A stretch of DNA of 64,000 bases from Akkermansiaceae bacterium (GCA_905182405.1 CAJJBQ010000002.1:1534483-1598482), one strand, 5' to 3'; shown: positions 27,613 to 31,590, counted from the first letter of the stretch. Notes: generated from the sequence alone by a model not told the origin. Numbers and translations: made by a program.

Positions 27613-29466
27613 ATGAGGAGGAACCCACTCTTAGACCTCGTCTCATTCCGATCAGCAAATGGCAAGGCGAGAGCGCTTGGTATTTGCTTATTCGGAGTAG
27701 GCCTGTGCGGCATCGCCTTTGTTCTGGCGGGATATTACCATAAGGACAAGACCTCTGAAATCGAGGCTAATCCCCCCAAGCTCGATCCGAGCTTACTTGA
27801 CTTAAATAGTACCCCCGGGGGCGCTAATGCGATCGCGGATTTGTGGAGTCCTTTGATCAAGACGCAGTTGCTTCATATCGCAAATGCGATTTCGAACCCC
27901 GATGGCGATGAGATCTCGATGTCACTCGCTGACCGCGTCAGCATCGTCGATCCCCAACAATTTCGTAAGGAGGAACTCTACCATGGACAATCAGTAAGAG
28001 TCGTCGGCCTCAGCCTACCCGAGGAGCTGGAGACTTCGGCCCTGATCGAGGTGGATAAGAGCGACTTCATCGATCGGATTCGGCCGTTACTTTCTCTCGG
28101 TTCTGAGGCGCCTGAGGATGCGGTCCACCTCAAATTGTTTGGCATTAGCAGGAATGGCGCAGATCTCAGCACAAAGCAGCGCCTGACAGCAGAGGGGATA
28201 CGGGGGGGCAATGATTTTCGATCGTCTGCGGTGGTCGAGGCAACGTGGATCACGCCGACCACAGATGATCCACCACAACTGACAGGTTTTACTCTGACAA
28301 ACCTTGTTCAGAGCGAACTTACGTCCGCGCCGACTTCGATTTTTAAGGACATCGCCGGCAGTGTCCTGGAGAGCAACCCTGCGTGGGAACAGCTTCGCCT
28401 CGGCATGAATACCTGGGGGCGCCATATCGAACATTCTCTGAATCCTGATTTTTTGGGCTACCATGGACTTGCGATTGGAGATGTCGATGGGGATGGATTA
28501 GAGGATCTCTACCTGTGCCAGCCAGGAGGATTGCCAAACCTTTTGTTCCGACAAACCCCTGACGGGAAAATGACAGATATTTCTGCCGCTGCGGGTGTCG
28601 ATTTCCTCGATAATTCGACAGGTGCCTTGTTGGTGGATTTGGACAATGATGGAGATGCAGATATGGCGGTGGCGACAAAGGCGGCCTTTCTGGTGATGGA
28701 CAATGATGGTAAAGGGAATTTCACTTTGCGAGAGAGCTACCCCGAAGTCGGAATGGGCTATTCTCCGACTGCTGCCGACTATGATCTTGATGGCGATCTC
28801 GATCTCTTTGTGCTGAGATATGGTGCGACGGAATCGGATATTGGCGACTTTCCGACCCCTCATCCTTTTCGGGATGCTCGTAATGGTGGCGCGAATATTC
28901 TTTTGGAAAACCAAGGAGGCTTTCGCTTCTTAGATGCCACTGAAAGATGTGGCCTGGGTGCTGGAAACCATCGCTTTTCGTTCGCAGCTTCGTGGGAAGA
29001 CTTTGATAACGACGGCCTCCTTGATGTTCACATCGTCAACGATTTTGGTCCGAACCAACTCTTTCGAAACGATGGGAAACGCTTTAAGGATGTTTCCGTC
29101 CAGAGCGGATCACAAGATTGGGGATTTGGGATGTCGGCAACATGGGCCGACTATGACCGTGATGGTCACATGGATTTGTATGTCTCGAATATGTTCTCAA
29201 GCGCTGGGAACCAAATTTTGCCTCAAAGCAATCTCGATACCACTTTAAGCGAAGAGACCCGGAAGAAATACCTTAAGATGGTACGCGGGAATTCCTTGTT
29301 GCGGAATTCCGGCAGTGGAAGTTTTTCTGATGTGACCGCTCCGATGAACGAGGGCTTTGGGGGATGGGCTTGGGGCTCTCAATTCGCAGACCTCAATAAC
29401 GATGGCTGGGAGGATCTCTACGTGGCGAACGGCTACATTACGCAAGAGGACGAAGACGATTTGTGA
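27613..29466 (+). CDS. CRTAC1-family protein, N-terminal part (membrane anchor + FG-GAP/VCBS repeats), ending at in-frame TGA
   Basis: It has a TM anchor (LGICLFGVGLCGIAFVLAGYY) and repeated DxDGDGxxDL motifs (GDVDGDGLEDLY, DLDNDGDADM, DYDLDGDLDLF, DFDNDGLLDV, DYDRDGHMDLY, DLNNDGWEDLY). A TTG at 27604 is an alternative start. Confidence 0.8.
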   Translation: MRRNPLLDLVSFRSANGKARALGICLFGVGLCGIAFVLAGYYHKDKTSEIEANPPKLDPSLLDLNSTPGGANAIADLWSPLIKTQLLHIANAISNPDGDEISMSLADRVSIVDPQQFRKEELYHGQSVRVVGLSLPEELETSALIEVDKSDFIDRIRPLLSLGSEAPEDAVHLKLFGISRNGADLSTKQRLTAEGIRGGNDFRSSAVVEATWITPTTDDPPQLTGFTLTNLVQSELTSAPTSIFKDIAGSVLESNPAWEQLRLGMNTWGRHIEHSLNPDFLGYHGLAIGDVDGDGLEDLYLCQPGGLPNLLFRQTPDGKMTDISAAAGVDFLDNSTGALLVDLDNDGDADMAVATKAAFLVMDNDGKGNFTLRESYPEVGMGYSPTAADYDLDGDLDLFVLRYGATESDIGDFPTPHPFRDARNGGANILLENQGGFRFLDATERCGLGAGNHRFSFAASWEDFDNDGLLDVHIVNDFGPNQLFRNDGKRFKDVSVQSGSQDWGFGMSATWADYDRDGHMDLYVSNMFSSAGNQILPQSNLDTTLSEETRKKYLKMVRGNSLLRNSGSGSFSDVTAPMNEGFGGWAWGSQFADLNNDGWEDLYVANGYITQEDEDDL

Positions 29467-29494
29467 ATGTTTTTCTGGCGGCGGGTCGCGCTGC
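29464..29494 (+). other. In-frame UGA followed after 11 nt by a 17-nt stem-loop with a GGUC-containing apical loop (SECIS-like)
   Basis: TGA is at 29464-29466, followed by the spacer ATGTTTTTCTG. The hairpin GCGGCG/GGTCG/CGCTGC spans 29478-29494. Pairs are 78-94, 79-93, 80-92 (G.U), 81-91, 82-90 and 83-89. Confidence 0.35.
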
Positions 29495-31590
29495 AAAGTC
29501 CGGAGGATGATCTCAAGCCGACTGCGACGCCTGGCTATTCGCGCAATTTTCGAGAATTGAATGATTTACTTTCAAGAGGAAAATCTTTCAGTGGCCGCGA
29601 GCGAAATCCTTTGTTCTTGAACCTCAAAGGCGAGGGCTTTGCAGAGGTCGGCGGGCTTCTTGGTGTCGATTTTCCAGATGATGCTCGCGCAGTGGCAACC
29701 ATGGATTGGGATCGGGATGGTGATCTCGATCTGTGGGTCACGAATCGCAACGCCCCTCAAGTAAGACTTTTGAGAAACAATCATCCCGCTGGCTCATCTT
29801 CGCTTTTGATCCGACTCATCGGAAATGGGACAACGACCAACCGGGATGCCATCGGGGCGCGGCTTGTCCTCGGACAAGCGGATGATCCCGAACAAGAGCA
29901 AATCAGGACGGTTCATGCAGGTGGAGGATTTCTGGCCCAATCAAGTGCAGTGATTCACTTCGGCCTGGGTGAGTCTGCCAATGATCTTCGATTGAGCGTG
30001 GCTTGGCCGGGAGGAAAAACCGAAACCTTGTCCGGCCTAAAATCGGGGAACCGTTATGTCATCACCCAAGGGCGTAAGGAATTCGAAGTGATGCCTTTGT
30101 CGGACCCGATTCAGGCTCCGATAAGTCGTGATGAGATCCCGGACACTCTGGAAAACACCGTTCCAGGGGGACTCTGGCTTGCCAATCGAGTGCCCTTTCC
30201 ATCGCTAGACTATACCGACAATACGGGGGAAGCCCGTACGACCACTTCTTCCATCGGCAAGCCAATCTTGGTGAATCTATGGGCAACCTGGTGTGAATCT
30301 TGTGTCCGGGAACTTCAAGAATTTGGCAAGCTTGACAAGTTCCTGCAATCCAGAGGAGCGACAATTCTAGCCCTCAATGTCGATGGGCTTGCACTAGATG
30401 GAGGGGCTTTATCAGAGGGAACGATCGAGGAAATTCTGAAGCGCGCCGGATACGATTTTCCTCACGGAATCGCAAGCCGTGAGGGTTTGGCGAAAATAGA
30501 AATGATGATCGAATTTCTAACCTCCCGCCGGGAGTCGCTCACGATCCCGTCGAGTTTCCTAATCGATGGGGAAGGATATCTTTCGGCCATTTATGTGGGG
30601 GAGATTCAGGGAAAGCAGTTGATCAAGGATATTGATCTTTTGAGAAGCCCGCCCGCTGAGCAGCTGAAACGAGCAACAGCCCGGGCCGGACGGTGGTTCT
30701 ACAATCCGCGCCAAATCGATCGGGTTGCCTTTCTTGGCGACTATGCAACTTCTTTTGCGAAGGGGGGATTCCCAGGGGAATCGCGGCGGCTCTCCCGAAT
30801 GATCAAACCCCAGGATGGGGCTCTCACTGCAAAAGATCACTATAACCAGGCGAAGGCCGCAGCGCGTCAAGGATTGGTGGCAGATGCGGAGCAACTCTAC
30901 CTCGAAGCGCTCCGCCTGGAGCCGGAGTTTGGTCAGGCGCTGACGGGTCTCGGAGCACTATTTTTAGTGCAGCAACGCGTCGAAGAGGCGGAAAATCTCT
31001 TCGAGAAAGCCCTCTCTATTGATCCCAATCATGCCACTGCCTTGATCAATTTGGCGATGATTGACCAATCTCGGGGACAGAAGGATCGCGCGCTGGCGCG
31101 CCTTGAAAAAGTGGTCGCCAAGAATCCTGACTATGCAGAGGCCCACCTGAATCTTGGCTCTCTCTTGGCATCCATGAAACAACTTGATAGGGCAATTTTC
31201 CACCTATCGAAAGCCATCGCATTCAATCCAAAGCGGGCCATTGCACACCTTAATTTAGCCTCCGTCTATATGGAGAAACAGCTGTGGGAGAAGGCTGAAC
31301 AACGATATCGACTCGTCCGGCAGCTAAACCCAAAAATGCCCTATGCGCATCTTGGACTTGCGACCTTGCAGGCGCGTCGGAAACTTCATCCCGAGGCTGT
31401 CATATCGTTACGCAAAGCAATCTCACTGGGCGCTGAGAACGCGAAATCTTACACTCAGCTCGCCCGTTCATTGCTGGCCCTCGGCGATAAAAAAGGTGCT
31501 TCCGAAGCGCTGCTGACGGCCTTAAAAATTGATCCCAAATACGCGGAGGCTCAACAGATCATTAAGGAAAACAGACTTCTTAGCGAATAG
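29467..31590 (+). CDS. CRTAC1-family protein, C-terminal part: ASPIC/UnbV domain + TlpA-like thioredoxin domain + TPR repeats
   Basis: It is in the same frame as 27613-29466. The UnbV block is LLIRLIGNGTTTNRDAIGARLVL..VHAGGGFLAQSS..HFGLG. It has the redoxin motif LVNLWATWCESC and C-terminal TPR repeats (AEQLYLEALRLEPEF...). It has no signal peptide of its own. Confidence 0.8.
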   Translation: MFFWRRVALQSPEDDLKPTATPGYSRNFRELNDLLSRGKSFSGRERNPLFLNLKGEGFAEVGGLLGVDFPDDARAVATMDWDRDGDLDLWVTNRNAPQVRLLRNNHPAGSSSLLIRLIGNGTTTNRDAIGARLVLGQADDPEQEQIRTVHAGGGFLAQSSAVIHFGLGESANDLRLSVAWPGGKTETLSGLKSGNRYVITQGRKEFEVMPLSDPIQAPISRDEIPDTLENTVPGGLWLANRVPFPSLDYTDNTGEARTTTSSIGKPILVNLWATWCESCVRELQEFGKLDKFLQSRGATILALNVDGLALDGGALSEGTIEEILKRAGYDFPHGIASREGLAKIEMMIEFLTSRRESLTIPSSFLIDGEGYLSAIYVGEIQGKQLIKDIDLLRSPPAEQLKRATARAGRWFYNPRQIDRVAFLGDYATSFAKGGFPGESRRLSRMIKPQDGALTAKDHYNQAKAAARQGLVADAEQLYLEALRLEPEFGQALTGLGALFLVQQRVEEAENLFEKALSIDPNHATALINLAMIDQSRGQKDRALARLEKVVAKNPDYAEAHLNLGSLLASMKQLDRAIFHLSKAIAFNPKRAIAHLNLASVYMEKQLWEKAEQRYRLVRQLNPKMPYAHLGLATLQARRKLHPEAVISLRKAISLGAENAKSYTQLARSLLALGDKKGASEALLTALKIDPKYAEAQQIIKENRLLSE

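What the first reader, a model, noticed from the sequence alone, without database searches (positions are those of the whole stretch)
29440..29500. One in-frame UGA splits a CRTAC1-type exoprotein, and a 17-nt hairpin with a GGUC loop sits 11 nt downstream (SECIS-like)
ORF 27613-29466 carries a TM anchor and FG-GAP repeats. ORF 29467-31590 carries ASPIC/UnbV, a TlpA-like thioredoxin (WCESC) and TPR repeats. The two ORFs share a frame and are separated only by TGA 29464-29466 (..NGYITQEDEDDL-TGA-MFFWRRVALQSP..).

The downstream ORF has no signal peptide or anchor, yet all of its domains are extracytoplasmic types. The intact paralogue at 52922-56533 carries FG-GAP repeats and UnbV on one chain. 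The two ORFs are therefore almost certainly one polypeptide.

Exactly 11 nt after the UGA (AUGUUUUUCUG) comes GCGGCG-GGUCG-CGCUGC (29478-29494). This is a 6-bp stem with one G.U pair and an apical loop that starts GGUC. That matches the geometry of the minimal E. coli fdhF SECIS: a 17-nt upper stem-loop, an 11-nt spacer and a GGUC loop.

This could be a selenocysteine or otherwise recoded site in a family I do not know as a selenoprotein, in a chain that also has a thiol-disulfide oxidoreductase domain. The plainer alternative is a nonsense mutation (TGG, CGA or TGY to TGA). This window has other nonsense lesions, which makes that alternative more likely.
Basis: partly seen in the sequence, partly recalled or inferred. 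Interest (0 to 1): 0.8.

Follow-up and report, generated by a model that had tools for sequence, protein, structure and literature searches.

The report
Overlooked selenocysteine propeller-thioredoxin protein family
The stop codon that seems to split this large exported bacterial protein is almost certainly a conserved selenocysteine codon with its RNA hairpin signal, which exposes a widespread selenoprotein family that gene callers split in two and that current catalogues do not list.

Summary

- TGA 29464-29466 is not a lesion. All 80 homologous loci fetched from species-representative genomes (Verrucomicrobiota, Planctomycetota, Acidobacteriota) carry TGA at this column.
- In 57 of them the next codon is Ser (AGY), not ATG, so a restart cannot explain the downstream half.
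- Both halves are under equal purifying selection.
- The hairpin 11 nt downstream is conserved: 99.3% of cells paired, compensatory changes at 4 of 6 pairs, loop GGUCG. It meets every constraint of the published bacterial SECIS model.
- In four loci the gene is followed directly by tRNA-Sec. selD follows it in the three loci tested, and selA was confirmed in one.

The gene (27613-31590) therefore encodes one 1325-residue chain: membrane anchor, FG-GAP/UnbV propeller, TlpA-like thioredoxin, TPR, with Sec at residue 618.

Two features are unusual. Homologues without TGA carry Glu, Asp or Ser at this column and rarely Cys. Sec also co-occurs with an intact CxxC in the fused thioredoxin domain (74 of 75 against 7 of 37).

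The family is absent from a 2026 catalogue of 119 families and gave no NCBIfam match. Four such genes were listed as candidates in a 2016 supplementary table. The Sec machinery of the window's own genome could not be checked.

The parts
27613..31590 (+). One selenoprotein gene of 1325 sense codons plus a stop, with Sec at residue 618. Gene callers split it into 617-aa and 707-aa products.
   Evidence: Single frame with one internal TGA. The split annotation is seen in public assemblies. dN/dS is similar on both sides of the TGA.
27673..27738 (+). N-terminal hydrophobic segment (residues 21-42, ALGICLFGVGLCGIAFVLAGYY), read as a signal anchor. Relatives have a TM segment or a lipobox here.
   Evidence: Translation. 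N-termini of relatives. The export topology is inferred, not shown.
28459..29463 (+). FG-GAP/VCBS propeller blades upstream of the UGA.
   Evidence: Pfam FG-GAP_3 4.4e-36 and FG-GAP 7e-18. Profile match to CRTAC1 structure 9etn.
29428..29607 (+). Conserved insert of about 60 residues between blades that carries the Sec (NGYITxxDxxDL-U-[MS]F[FYW]WR[RQ]V..SFSGxERN). It is missing from the window's paralogue and is not aligned to CRTAC1.
   Evidence: Gap in the alignment to paralogue 52925-56533(-). The CRTAC1 alignment skips profile positions 288-421. Motif conservation.
29464..29466 (+). Sec-UGA codon.
   Evidence: TGA in 80 of 80 related loci. TGA is also an ordinary stop in this window, closing 12 of 32 long frames.
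29467..29477 (+). 11-nt spacer between the UGA and the hairpin (AUGUUUUUCUG). The ATG is specific to the window's clade.
   Evidence: The spacer length is the same as in E. coli fdhF.
29478..29494 (+). Bacterial SECIS hairpin: 5' arm 29478-29483, loop GGUCG 29484-29488, 3' arm 29489-29494.
   Evidence: -10.6 kcal/mol. 99.3% of cells paired and compensatory changes at 4 of 6 pairs. RNAalifold gives the same structure. It meets the bSECIS model as quoted.
29563..29739 (+). Further FG-GAP blade downstream of the UGA, so the propeller spans the stop codon.
   Evidence: Pfam FG-GAP_3 at C-half residues 33-91, below the curated cutoff (7e-4). MDWDRDGDLDLW motif.
29848..30057 (+). UnbV/ASPIC domain.
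   Evidence: Pfam PF07593 4.7e-15 at C-half residues 128-197. Matches CRTAC1 9etn residues 379-484.
30193..30606 (+). TlpA-like thioredoxin (Redoxin/AhpC-TSA) domain. The active-site CESC is at 30292-30303.
   Evidence: Pfam, NCBIfam TlpA/ResA, PDB TlpA 1jfu 4e-17, translation WATWCESC. CxxC is intact in 74 of 75 Sec forms.
30829..31587 (+). C-terminal TPR repeats.
   Evidence: Pfam TPR_2, TPR_1, TPR_11 and others, 1e-24 to 3e-30.

Best explanation
UGA 29464-29466 is decoded as selenocysteine.

Mechanism of decoding: the 17-nt hairpin 29478-29494, 11 nt downstream with loop GGUCG, acts as a bacterial SECIS. It recruits SelB carrying Sec-tRNA(Sec) to the ribosome paused at the UGA. Positions 27613-31590 are then translated as one 1325-residue chain.

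The chain: N-terminal membrane anchor, FG-GAP/UnbV (CRTAC1-like) beta-propeller with Sec618 in a conserved inter-blade insert, TlpA-like thioredoxin domain (WCESC), then TPR repeats.

Shown here: conservation of the UGA; conservation and covariation of the hairpin; purifying selection across the UGA; physical linkage of family members to selC, selD and selA; co-occurrence of Sec with an intact thioredoxin CxxC.

Inferred, at about 50%: the protein is an extracytoplasmic redox selenoenzyme. Its selenol reacts with an unknown oxidised substrate or forms a selenenylsulfide. The fused TlpA-like CxxC domain then re-reduces it, and that domain is itself reduced by a membrane CcdA/DsbD-type electron donor. 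The TPR part would hold a partner or substrate.
For: 1. TGA is present at the homologous column in 80 of 80 loci from species-representative genomes of three phyla. In the 23 closest loci the next codon is ATG. In the other 57 it is AGY (Ser), so there is no restart codon.

2. Hairpin (alignment columns 21-26 with 32-37): 99.3% of 444 cells form standard pairs. Four of six pairs show double changes (CG/AU; GC/GU/AU; GU/AU/GC/CG; AU/GC). The covariation score is 0.435 against 0.194 in shuffles (0 of 500 reach it). Slid controls pair in 15-63% of cells. RNAalifold finds the same helix. An S-to-A amino-acid change is matched by a synonymous CGR-to-CGC change (L058, L060, L064).

3. The hairpin meets all four constraints of the published bSECIS model: a 5-nt loop, a 6-bp stem, G in the first two loop positions, 17 nt from the UGA to the loop, and -10.6 kcal/mol. 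Across the set, 79 of 81 hairpins are at or below -7.5 kcal/mol. The spacer (11 nt) and element length (17 nt) are the same as in E. coli fdhF.

4. tRNA-Sec lies directly downstream of family members in L032, L039, L040 and L046 (ARAGORN; Rfam RF01852 at 65-69 bits against a gathering score of 47). It is followed by SelD in L039, L046 and L032 (about 1e-148) and by SelA in L039 (4e-139).

5. dN/dS is 0.14-0.31 upstream and 0.09-0.22 downstream of the UGA. No promoter or terminator was found at the junction.

6. Four MAGs carry both a TGA-ATG and a TGA-AGY paralogue (record names).

7. An intact CxxC is present in 74 of 75 Sec forms against 7 of 37 non-Sec homologues. Sec forms make essentially one clade, and its nearest non-Sec neighbours are the ones that keep CxxC.

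8. Planctomycetes with complete selA, selB and selD were independently reported to carry such candidate genes.
Against: - selA, selB, selC and selD of the window's own genome were not seen. The window has no tRNA, and the SelA search did not reach its contigs.
- selB was not found next to any family member.
- Homologues without TGA have E (15), D (14), S (12), A, N, M, Q, G or R at the column and only 2 Cys among 58. The usual Sec/Cys pairing is therefore nearly absent, and no Cys lies close in sequence.
- In the window's clade the UGA is always followed by AUG, which leaves a restart formally possible there.
- The single-sequence fold is not better than shuffles.
- One Ser-form homologue also has a 5-bp hairpin at this place.
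- No structure with coordinates could be obtained, so the proximity of Sec to the CxxC is untested.
- There is no experimental evidence of selenium incorporation.
Confidence: 0.85

Rival explanations
1. True split gene in the window's clade. Translation ends at UGA 29464 and restarts at the adjacent AUG 29467 (termination-reinitiation). This would give two polypeptides that work separately or assemble.
For: All 23 closest loci have TGA ATG. Gene callers produce two products. Purifying selection on both halves fits this reading too.
Against: - 57 more distant loci keep the TGA but follow it with AGY, so they have no start codon.
- The hairpin shows compensatory changes inside the ATG clade itself: GAGGCG/CGCCUC, GCGGCG/CGCCGC, GCGACG/CGUCGC, GCAGCG/CGCUGC.
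- The break falls inside the propeller (blades on both sides), and the second half has no signal peptide.
- No Shine-Dalgarno-like sequence lies at a usable distance.
- Four MAGs with the ATG type also carry an AGY-type paralogue.
Confidence: 0.05
2. SelB-independent recoding. The UGA is read through by a near-cognate or suppressor tRNA (Trp, Cys, Arg or Gly), with the hairpin acting as a stimulator, or UGA is reassigned in these genomes.
For: The conserved UGA and hairpin alone do not identify the inserted amino acid. Homologues without TGA do not carry Cys.
Against: - UGA is an ordinary stop in the window (12 of 32 long frames) and ends many family genes, so the code is not reassigned.
- The hairpin matches the SelB-type SECIS model in loop sequence and spacing.
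- tRNA-Sec, selD and selA lie next to family members.
- Trp is absent among non-TGA homologues, and Arg and Gly each occur once.
Confidence: 0.04
3. Nonsense mutation (pseudogene) or base-call error.
For: A single in-frame TGA. The fold of the single sequence is not significant.
Against: - TGA at the same column in 80 of 80 loci from different species and phyla.
- The exact protein is on 6 independent contigs from different assemblies.
- dN/dS of 0.09-0.22 downstream of the TGA.
- More than 100 orthologous protein clusters all end at the same residue.
Confidence: 0.01

Closest known systems
E. coli fdhF selenocysteine insertion sequence (minimal SECIS)
   Same: [quoted passage not shown] The spacer is 11 nt and the upper stem-loop is 17 nt. 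The apical loop begins GGUC. The fdhF sequence was verified in 5,419 E. coli genomes.
   Different: There is no bulged U in the 5' arm. The layout is 6+5+6 (pentaloop GGUCG) instead of 7+4+6, so GGUC sits one nucleotide closer to the UGA. No extended lower helix was found. Binding by SelB is untested.
[quoted passage not shown] 2016, PMC4807772, S9 Table)
   Same: Same domain description. Each is annotated as two adjacent genes. bSECISearch found a SECIS in 3 of 4. The closest non-Sec homologue has a non-Cys residue (Gly). The host genomes have selA, selB and selD.
   Different: That paper gives a table entry only, with no conservation, covariation, architecture or distribution. The candidates did not enter the 2026 catalogue.
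CRTAC1 / ASPIC-UnbV FG-GAP propeller proteins (human CRTAC1, PDB 9etn)
   Same: FG-GAP blades with Dx[DN]xDG-type motifs followed by an UnbV/ASPIC domain.
   Different: CRTAC1 and the window's own paralogue lack the roughly 60-residue insert that carries Sec. They also lack the thioredoxin and TPR parts. No redox role is known for them.
Enzyme-thioredoxin fusions with a TlpA-like domain, such as the N-terminal thioredoxin domain of Neisseria PilB MsrA/B
   Same: A TlpA/ResA-type WCxxC domain is fused to another extracytoplasmic module. PilB thioredoxin-domain structures (2h30, 2jzr, 2fy6) match this domain. In PilB the thioredoxin domain recycles the catalytic cysteines of the fused enzyme (my own knowledge).
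   Different: Here the partner is a beta-propeller with one Sec and no defined catalytic fold. The recycling role is inferred only from co-occurrence.
Catalogued TlpA/redoxin-type selenoproteins (UGC-containing TlpA family, Redoxin family UxxC, thiol-disulfide isomerase-like UxxC; PMC13188914 Table 1)
   Same: Extracytoplasmic thiol-disulfide oxidoreductase fold in a selenoprotein.
   Different: In those families Sec replaces a Cys of the thioredoxin motif itself. Here the thioredoxin motif is CxxC and Sec lies about 275 residues upstream in a different domain.

Membership tests
Bacterial selenoprotein gene (Sec-UGA plus bSECIS) | In-frame UGA conserved among orthologues, with coding sequence continuing downstream | tested here: met
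   80 of 80 loci have TGA. dN/dS is 0.09-0.22 downstream.
Bacterial selenoprotein gene (Sec-UGA plus bSECIS) | Stem-loop meeting the bSECIS model: 3-9 nt loop, 4-16 bp stem, G in the first two loop positions, 16-37 nt from the UGA to the loop, MFE at or below -7.5 kcal/mol | tested here: met
   5-nt loop GGUCG, 6 bp, 17 nt, -10.6 kcal/mol. 79 of 81 family hairpins are at or below -7.5.
Bacterial selenoprotein gene (Sec-UGA plus bSECIS) | Structure supported by covariation | tested here: met
   4 of 6 pairs have compensatory changes. 0 of 500 shuffles reach the observed score. RNAalifold agrees.
Bacterial selenoprotein gene (Sec-UGA plus bSECIS) | selA, selB, selC and selD present in the same genome | tested here: inconclusive
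In related genomes selC lies next to the gene in 4 loci, selD follows it in the 3 tested, and selA was confirmed in 1. selB was not seen. Planctomycetes P1 and P2 have the full set.
Bacterial selenoprotein gene (Sec-UGA plus bSECIS) | Cys-containing homologues aligned with the Sec | tested here: not met
   Only 2 of 58 non-TGA representatives have Cys. E, D and S dominate. This is a usual property of selenoproteins, not a strict requirement.
Bacterial selenoprotein gene (Sec-UGA plus bSECIS) | Selenium incorporated into the protein | not testable with these tools
   Needs 75Se labelling or mass spectrometry.
E. coli fdhF-type minimal SECIS | 17-nt upper stem-loop placed 11 nt after the UGA | tested here: met
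E. coli fdhF-type minimal SECIS | GGUC tetraloop and a bulged U in the 5' arm (SelB contacts) | tested here: not met
   The loop is the pentaloop GGUCG, and no bulge occurs in any of the 81 sequences.
CRTAC1 / ASPIC-UnbV family | FG-GAP/VCBS repeats followed by an UnbV_ASPIC domain | tested here: met
   PF13517 4e-36 and PF07593 5e-15. 9etn 2.7e-26.
TlpA-like thiol-disulfide oxidoreductase domain | Thioredoxin fold with a WCxxC active site | tested here: met
   Redoxin/AhpC-TSA. TlpA 1jfu 4e-17 and ResA. WATWCESC.
Catalogued prokaryotic selenoprotein families (119 in PMC13188914 Table 1; NCBIfam selenoprotein models) | Match to a listed family, domain or model | tested here: not met
   No FG-GAP/VCBS/UnbV entry in the table. 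No NCBIfam selenoprotein model hits either half or the junction.

The most novel reading that the evidence does not exclude
The Sec here is not a stand-in for a catalytic Cys. It was recruited at a position that is acidic or polar (Glu, Asp, Ser) in the redox-dead relatives, on the surface of a non-thioredoxin-fold beta-propeller, together with an active TlpA-type CxxC domain. On this reading the family is a new class of periplasmic selenoenzyme or selenol-metal site with a built-in reductase. It is present in several paralogues per genome across Verrucomicrobiota, Planctomycetota and Acidobacteriota. It would also give the first functional handle on the CRTAC1/ASPIC-UnbV superfamily.
Probability: 0.3. 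Interest if true: 0.75.

Novelty: new member of a known kind. Interest (0 to 1): 0.6.

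Why it matters
- Annotation. Gene callers and NCBI annotation cut these genes into an 'FG-GAP/VCBS repeat protein' and a 'tetratricopeptide repeat protein'. Hundreds of genomes therefore carry a mis-annotated and unrecognised selenoprotein, often in several copies. Selenoproteome sizes for PVC bacteria and Acidobacteria are underestimated.
- Detection methods. Because the Sec column is not Cys in homologues, Sec/Cys-homology methods will miss the family. That may explain its absence from the 119-family catalogue.
- Biology. It is an exported beta-propeller selenoprotein with its own thioredoxin domain, which is unusual among selenoproteins: the catalogue review says most characterised ones have a thioredoxin-like fold. 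It belongs to a superfamily whose human member (CRTAC1) has no known biochemical function.
- Selenium use. The linkage to selC, selD and selA in marine Verrucomicrobiota suggests the family may help to maintain the Sec trait in those lineages.

Tried and rejected
- Single-sequence folding gave insignificant z-scores. It was useless for deciding.
- Rfam at gathering threshold found nothing in the window. ARAGORN found no tRNA in the window.
- The window's paralogue was expected to show the residue at the column, but it lacks the whole insert.
The tool also returns no coordinates, so the Sec-to-CxxC distance could not be measured. I ran no further search on partial chains.
- I tried to tie Sec machinery to the window's lineage by matching contig lengths of SelA hits to the large contigs carrying family members. 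None of the top 120 hits matched.
- ARAGORN on the wider flanks L081-L084 found nothing.
- Two apparently truncated C halves (L012, L064) were checked as possible second UGA sites. They proved to be an adapter-terminated contig end and a masked or frameshifted stretch.
- Literature: no paper pairs UnbV, FG-GAP, VCBS or CRTAC1 with selenocysteine in its main text. The only mention is in a supplement.
- Code reassignment was considered and rejected.

Full report
**1. The observation**

- ORF 27613-29463 and ORF 29467-31590 share a frame and are separated only by TGA 29464-29466 (..NGYITQEDEDDL * MFFWRRVALQSP..).
- Eleven nucleotides later comes GCGGCG-GGUCG-CGCUGC (29478-29494).
- Pfam places FG-GAP repeats in the first ORF. 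It places UnbV_ASPIC, a Redoxin/AhpC-TSA domain and many TPR repeats in the second. WATWCESC is at 30280-30303.
- In this one sequence the hairpin folds no better than shuffled sequence (z = 0.98 and 0.28). The window alone could not settle the matter.
- The window has no tRNA gene and no Rfam match.

**2. The stop codon is conserved, not a lesion**

A protein search with a 394-residue query spanning the junction returned more than 100 clusters of close orthologues (65-99% identity). Each covers only 46% of the query, meaning all end at the same residue. A few clusters begin MFFWRRV.

I then fetched 80 loci from species-representative genomes: Akkermansiaceae, Verrucomicrobiales, Limisphaerales, Pirellulales, Planctomycetaceae and Terriglobia/Acidobacteriota. 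I aligned each to the junction.
- The codon at the column is TGA in 80 of 80.
- The peptide patterns used for the scan did not span the stop, so this result is not built in.
- In the 23 closest loci the next codon is ATG. In the other 57 it is AGT or AGC (Ser), with consensus ..GDL-TGA-S-[FV][FYW]WRQVVSQSP... There a second gene has no start codon.
- The exact N-half protein of the window is found on six independent contigs, so a base-call error is excluded.
- Between the window and its relatives, dN/dS is 0.14-0.31 upstream and 0.09-0.22 downstream of the TGA.
- No promoter-like or terminator-like site lies at the junction.
- TGA is an ordinary stop here. It closes 12 of 32 long frames in the window and ends many family genes.

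**3. The hairpin is a conserved structure of SECIS type**

In an ungapped alignment of 81 sequences, the six pairs are formed in 99.3% of cells.
- Four of the six pairs show changes on both sides: CG/AU; GC/GU/AU; GU/AU/GC/CG; AU/GC.
- The covariation score is 0.435 against 0.194 in shuffles, and 0 of 500 shuffles reach it.
- Sliding the 3' arm by 1-3 columns drops pairing to 15-63%.
- RNAalifold predicts exactly this helix.

Protein constraints cannot explain several of the changes.
- Where Ser (UCG) becomes Ala (GCG), the synonymous third base of the Arg codon changes from R to C (L058, L060, L064).
- In a 96%-identical relative (L052), an Arg-to-Gln change turns the window's G.U into A-U.
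- Compensatory variants also occur inside the ATG clade itself.

The loop is GGUCG in 69 of 81 sequences. The hairpin energy is -10.6 kcal/mol in the window, with a mean of -9.65, and 79 of 81 are at or below -7.5.

All four constraints of the published bacterial SECIS model are met (PMC13188914): loop 3-9 nt, stem 4-16 bp, G in the first two loop positions, 16-37 nt from the UGA to the loop, and MFE at or below -7.5. The distance from the UGA to the loop is 17 nt here.

I confirmed the E. coli fdhF element in 5,419 genomes. It has the same 11-nt spacer and 17-nt element. It differs in having a bulged U and a GGUC tetraloop, where this family has a pentaloop and no bulge.

Four homologues without TGA give weaker or no hairpins at this place (-8.4, -4.8, -5.0 and +4.6 kcal/mol), and none has the GGUCG loop. 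That control is small, and one Ser form keeps five pairs.

**4. Sec machinery is linked to the family**

- ARAGORN finds a tRNA-Sec (anticodon TCA) directly downstream of the family gene in L032, L039, L040 and L046.
- Rfam RF01852 confirms all four at 65-69 bits, against a gathering score of 47.
- In L039 the next two genes are SelD (1e-148) and SelA (4e-139). SelD also follows in L046 and L032.
- Four MAGs carry both an ATG-type and an AGY-type paralogue: JAQCER01, JBLHHN01, JANQJH01 and JBLHKE01. Genomes of the window's clade therefore also hold copies that cannot be rescued by a restart.
- I could not reach the rest of the window's own genome. A SelA search did not hit its contigs. selB was not seen next to any member.

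**5. What the protein is**

- Joined, the gene encodes 1325 residues: a hydrophobic N-terminal anchor, a linker region, FG-GAP blades on both sides of the UGA, UnbV/ASPIC, a TlpA-like thioredoxin domain with CESC, and TPR repeats. Relatives have a TM segment or a lipobox at the N-terminus.
- The closest solved structures are CRTAC1 (9etn, 2.7e-26) for the propeller and UnbV parts, and TlpA or ResA for the thioredoxin part.
- Sec618 lies in a conserved insert of about 60 residues between blades. The insert is absent from the window's paralogue 52925-56533(-) and is not aligned in CRTAC1.
- Nearly every family member has CxxC 257-290 residues after the Sec.

**6. Unusual features**

- A profile search of 1.84 billion representatives found 58 junction-spanning homologues without TGA. 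At the Sec column they have E 15, D 14, S 12, A 4, N 4, M 3, Q 2, C 2, G 1 and R 1.
- The flanking motif (DL-x-S/G-FFWRQVV..SP) is conserved, but the column itself is variable and rarely Cys.
- The Sec forms make essentially one clade: 77 Sec forms with four non-Sec sequences inside (S, C, S, E). Their nearest non-Sec neighbours are those that keep the thioredoxin CxxC.
- An intact CxxC is present in 74 of 75 Sec forms but only 7 of 37 non-Sec homologues. The rest have SxxS, SxxC, APES and similar motifs. These counts are not phylogenetically independent. Even so, the pattern is an active-looking Sec plus CxxC clade next to relatives that appear redox-dead.

**7. Mechanism**

Shown: conserved UGA, covarying SECIS-type hairpin, selection across the UGA, and linkage to selC, selD and selA.

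Inferred: SelB with Sec-tRNA(Sec) reads UGA 29464 and gives one exported chain. The selenol on the propeller insert is the reactive centre. The fused TlpA-like CxxC keeps it reduced or resolves a selenenylsulfide, by analogy with fusions such as PilB, whose thioredoxin domain matches this one.

The substrate is unknown. A selenol-metal site is an alternative, given that acidic residues occupy the column in relatives.

**8. Rivals**

- A nonsense mutation or sequencing error is excluded (sections 2-3).
- A split gene with restart at AUG 29467 remains formally possible for the window's clade only. It is contradicted by ongoing compensatory evolution of the hairpin in that clade, by the break falling inside the propeller, and by the missing signal peptide on the second half.
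- SelB-independent readthrough or reassignment is unlikely, given normal use of UGA as a stop and the linked Sec genes.

**9. Novelty**

- The 2026 catalogue of 119 prokaryotic selenoprotein families has no FG-GAP, VCBS or UnbV entry.
- The deep-Sep, BSepDB and GOS papers do not mention such domains.
- No NCBIfam model for a selenoprotein hits either half or the junction.
- Public annotation splits the gene.
- The family is not entirely new, however. Kim et al. [quoted passage not shown] The aligned residue in the closest hit is Gly, bSECISearch was positive in three of four, and the genomes have selA, selB and selD. No analysis accompanies the table entry.

I therefore rate this a new (uncatalogued, once-flagged) member of a known kind. 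It now has comparative support, a defined SECIS, a defined architecture and a distribution across three phyla.

**10. Verdict**

Selenocysteine decoding of UGA 29464: about 0.85 for this gene, and higher for the family as a whole. The redox relay with the thioredoxin domain: about 0.5. Interest: 0.6.

Noticed in passing
L039 6148-10882; also L032, L040, L046: In four marine Verrucomicrobiota MAGs the family gene is followed directly by tRNA-Sec. selD follows in the three loci tested (L039, L046, L032), and selA was confirmed in L039. This arrangement puts the gene beside the Sec machinery and may mean that the family helps to maintain the Sec trait there. selB is not in the cluster.
   Followed up: partly
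window 29467-29469 and L001-L022, L052: In the window's clade the codon after the UGA is always ATG, where other clades have Ser (AGY). This may be a plain Ser-to-Met substitution. It might instead allow restart when selenium is scarce. No Shine-Dalgarno-like sequence is nearby.
   Followed up: partly
window 24852-27509 (-) and 31733-35065 (+); L082, L083: Conserved neighbours. A CotH/LTD/Fn3_assoc protein lies upstream on the opposite strand and a CBM9-domain protein of 1110-1310 aa lies downstream. Both flank the selenoprotein gene in the window's lineage and in a genome whose N-half protein (P0038) is 71% identical to the junction query.
   Followed up: partly
window 52925-56533 (-): The paralogue is on the minus strand, not the plus strand as the finding implies. 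It has ten FG-GAP matches and two UnbV_ASPIC domains, so it is a tandem duplication of the module. It lacks the Sec-bearing insert, the thioredoxin domain and the TPR repeats.
   Followed up: partly
family alignment, 48 residues after the Sec (window 29608-29610, Pro in the window): 65% of Sec forms have a Cys in the motif SFSGxERN-C. The window's clade has Pro or Ala there. A Cys in LYLCQPGG (window residue 302, 28516-28518) is present in 93% of Sec forms against 54% of non-Sec homologues. Either could be a partner of the selenol.
   Followed up: no
L081 3850-3900 (Ser-form homologue P0096): A homologue with TCC (Ser) at the column still has a 5-bp hairpin (loop GGUGG) at the SECIS position, and its thioredoxin motif is SPVC. 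This may be a relic of a former Sec form. The gene there is broken into several called ORFs.
   Followed up: partly
L012 3' end; L064 around 2720: Two family members look truncated. L012 ends in Nextera adapter sequence (CTGTCTCTTATACACATCT...) at the contig end. L064 has a masked stretch followed by a frameshift. Both are assembly artefacts in public MAGs, not second UGA sites.
   Followed up: yes
window 17312-18496 (-): By precomputed Pfam on the identical contig (L083 1-836), this ORF is a di-haem cytochrome c peroxidase/MauG-family protein. It is another periplasmic redox enzyme about 9 kb upstream. No link to the selenoprotein was tested.
   Followed up: no
window 41525-47899 (-): A 2124-residue ORF, the largest in the window, was not examined.
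   Followed up: no
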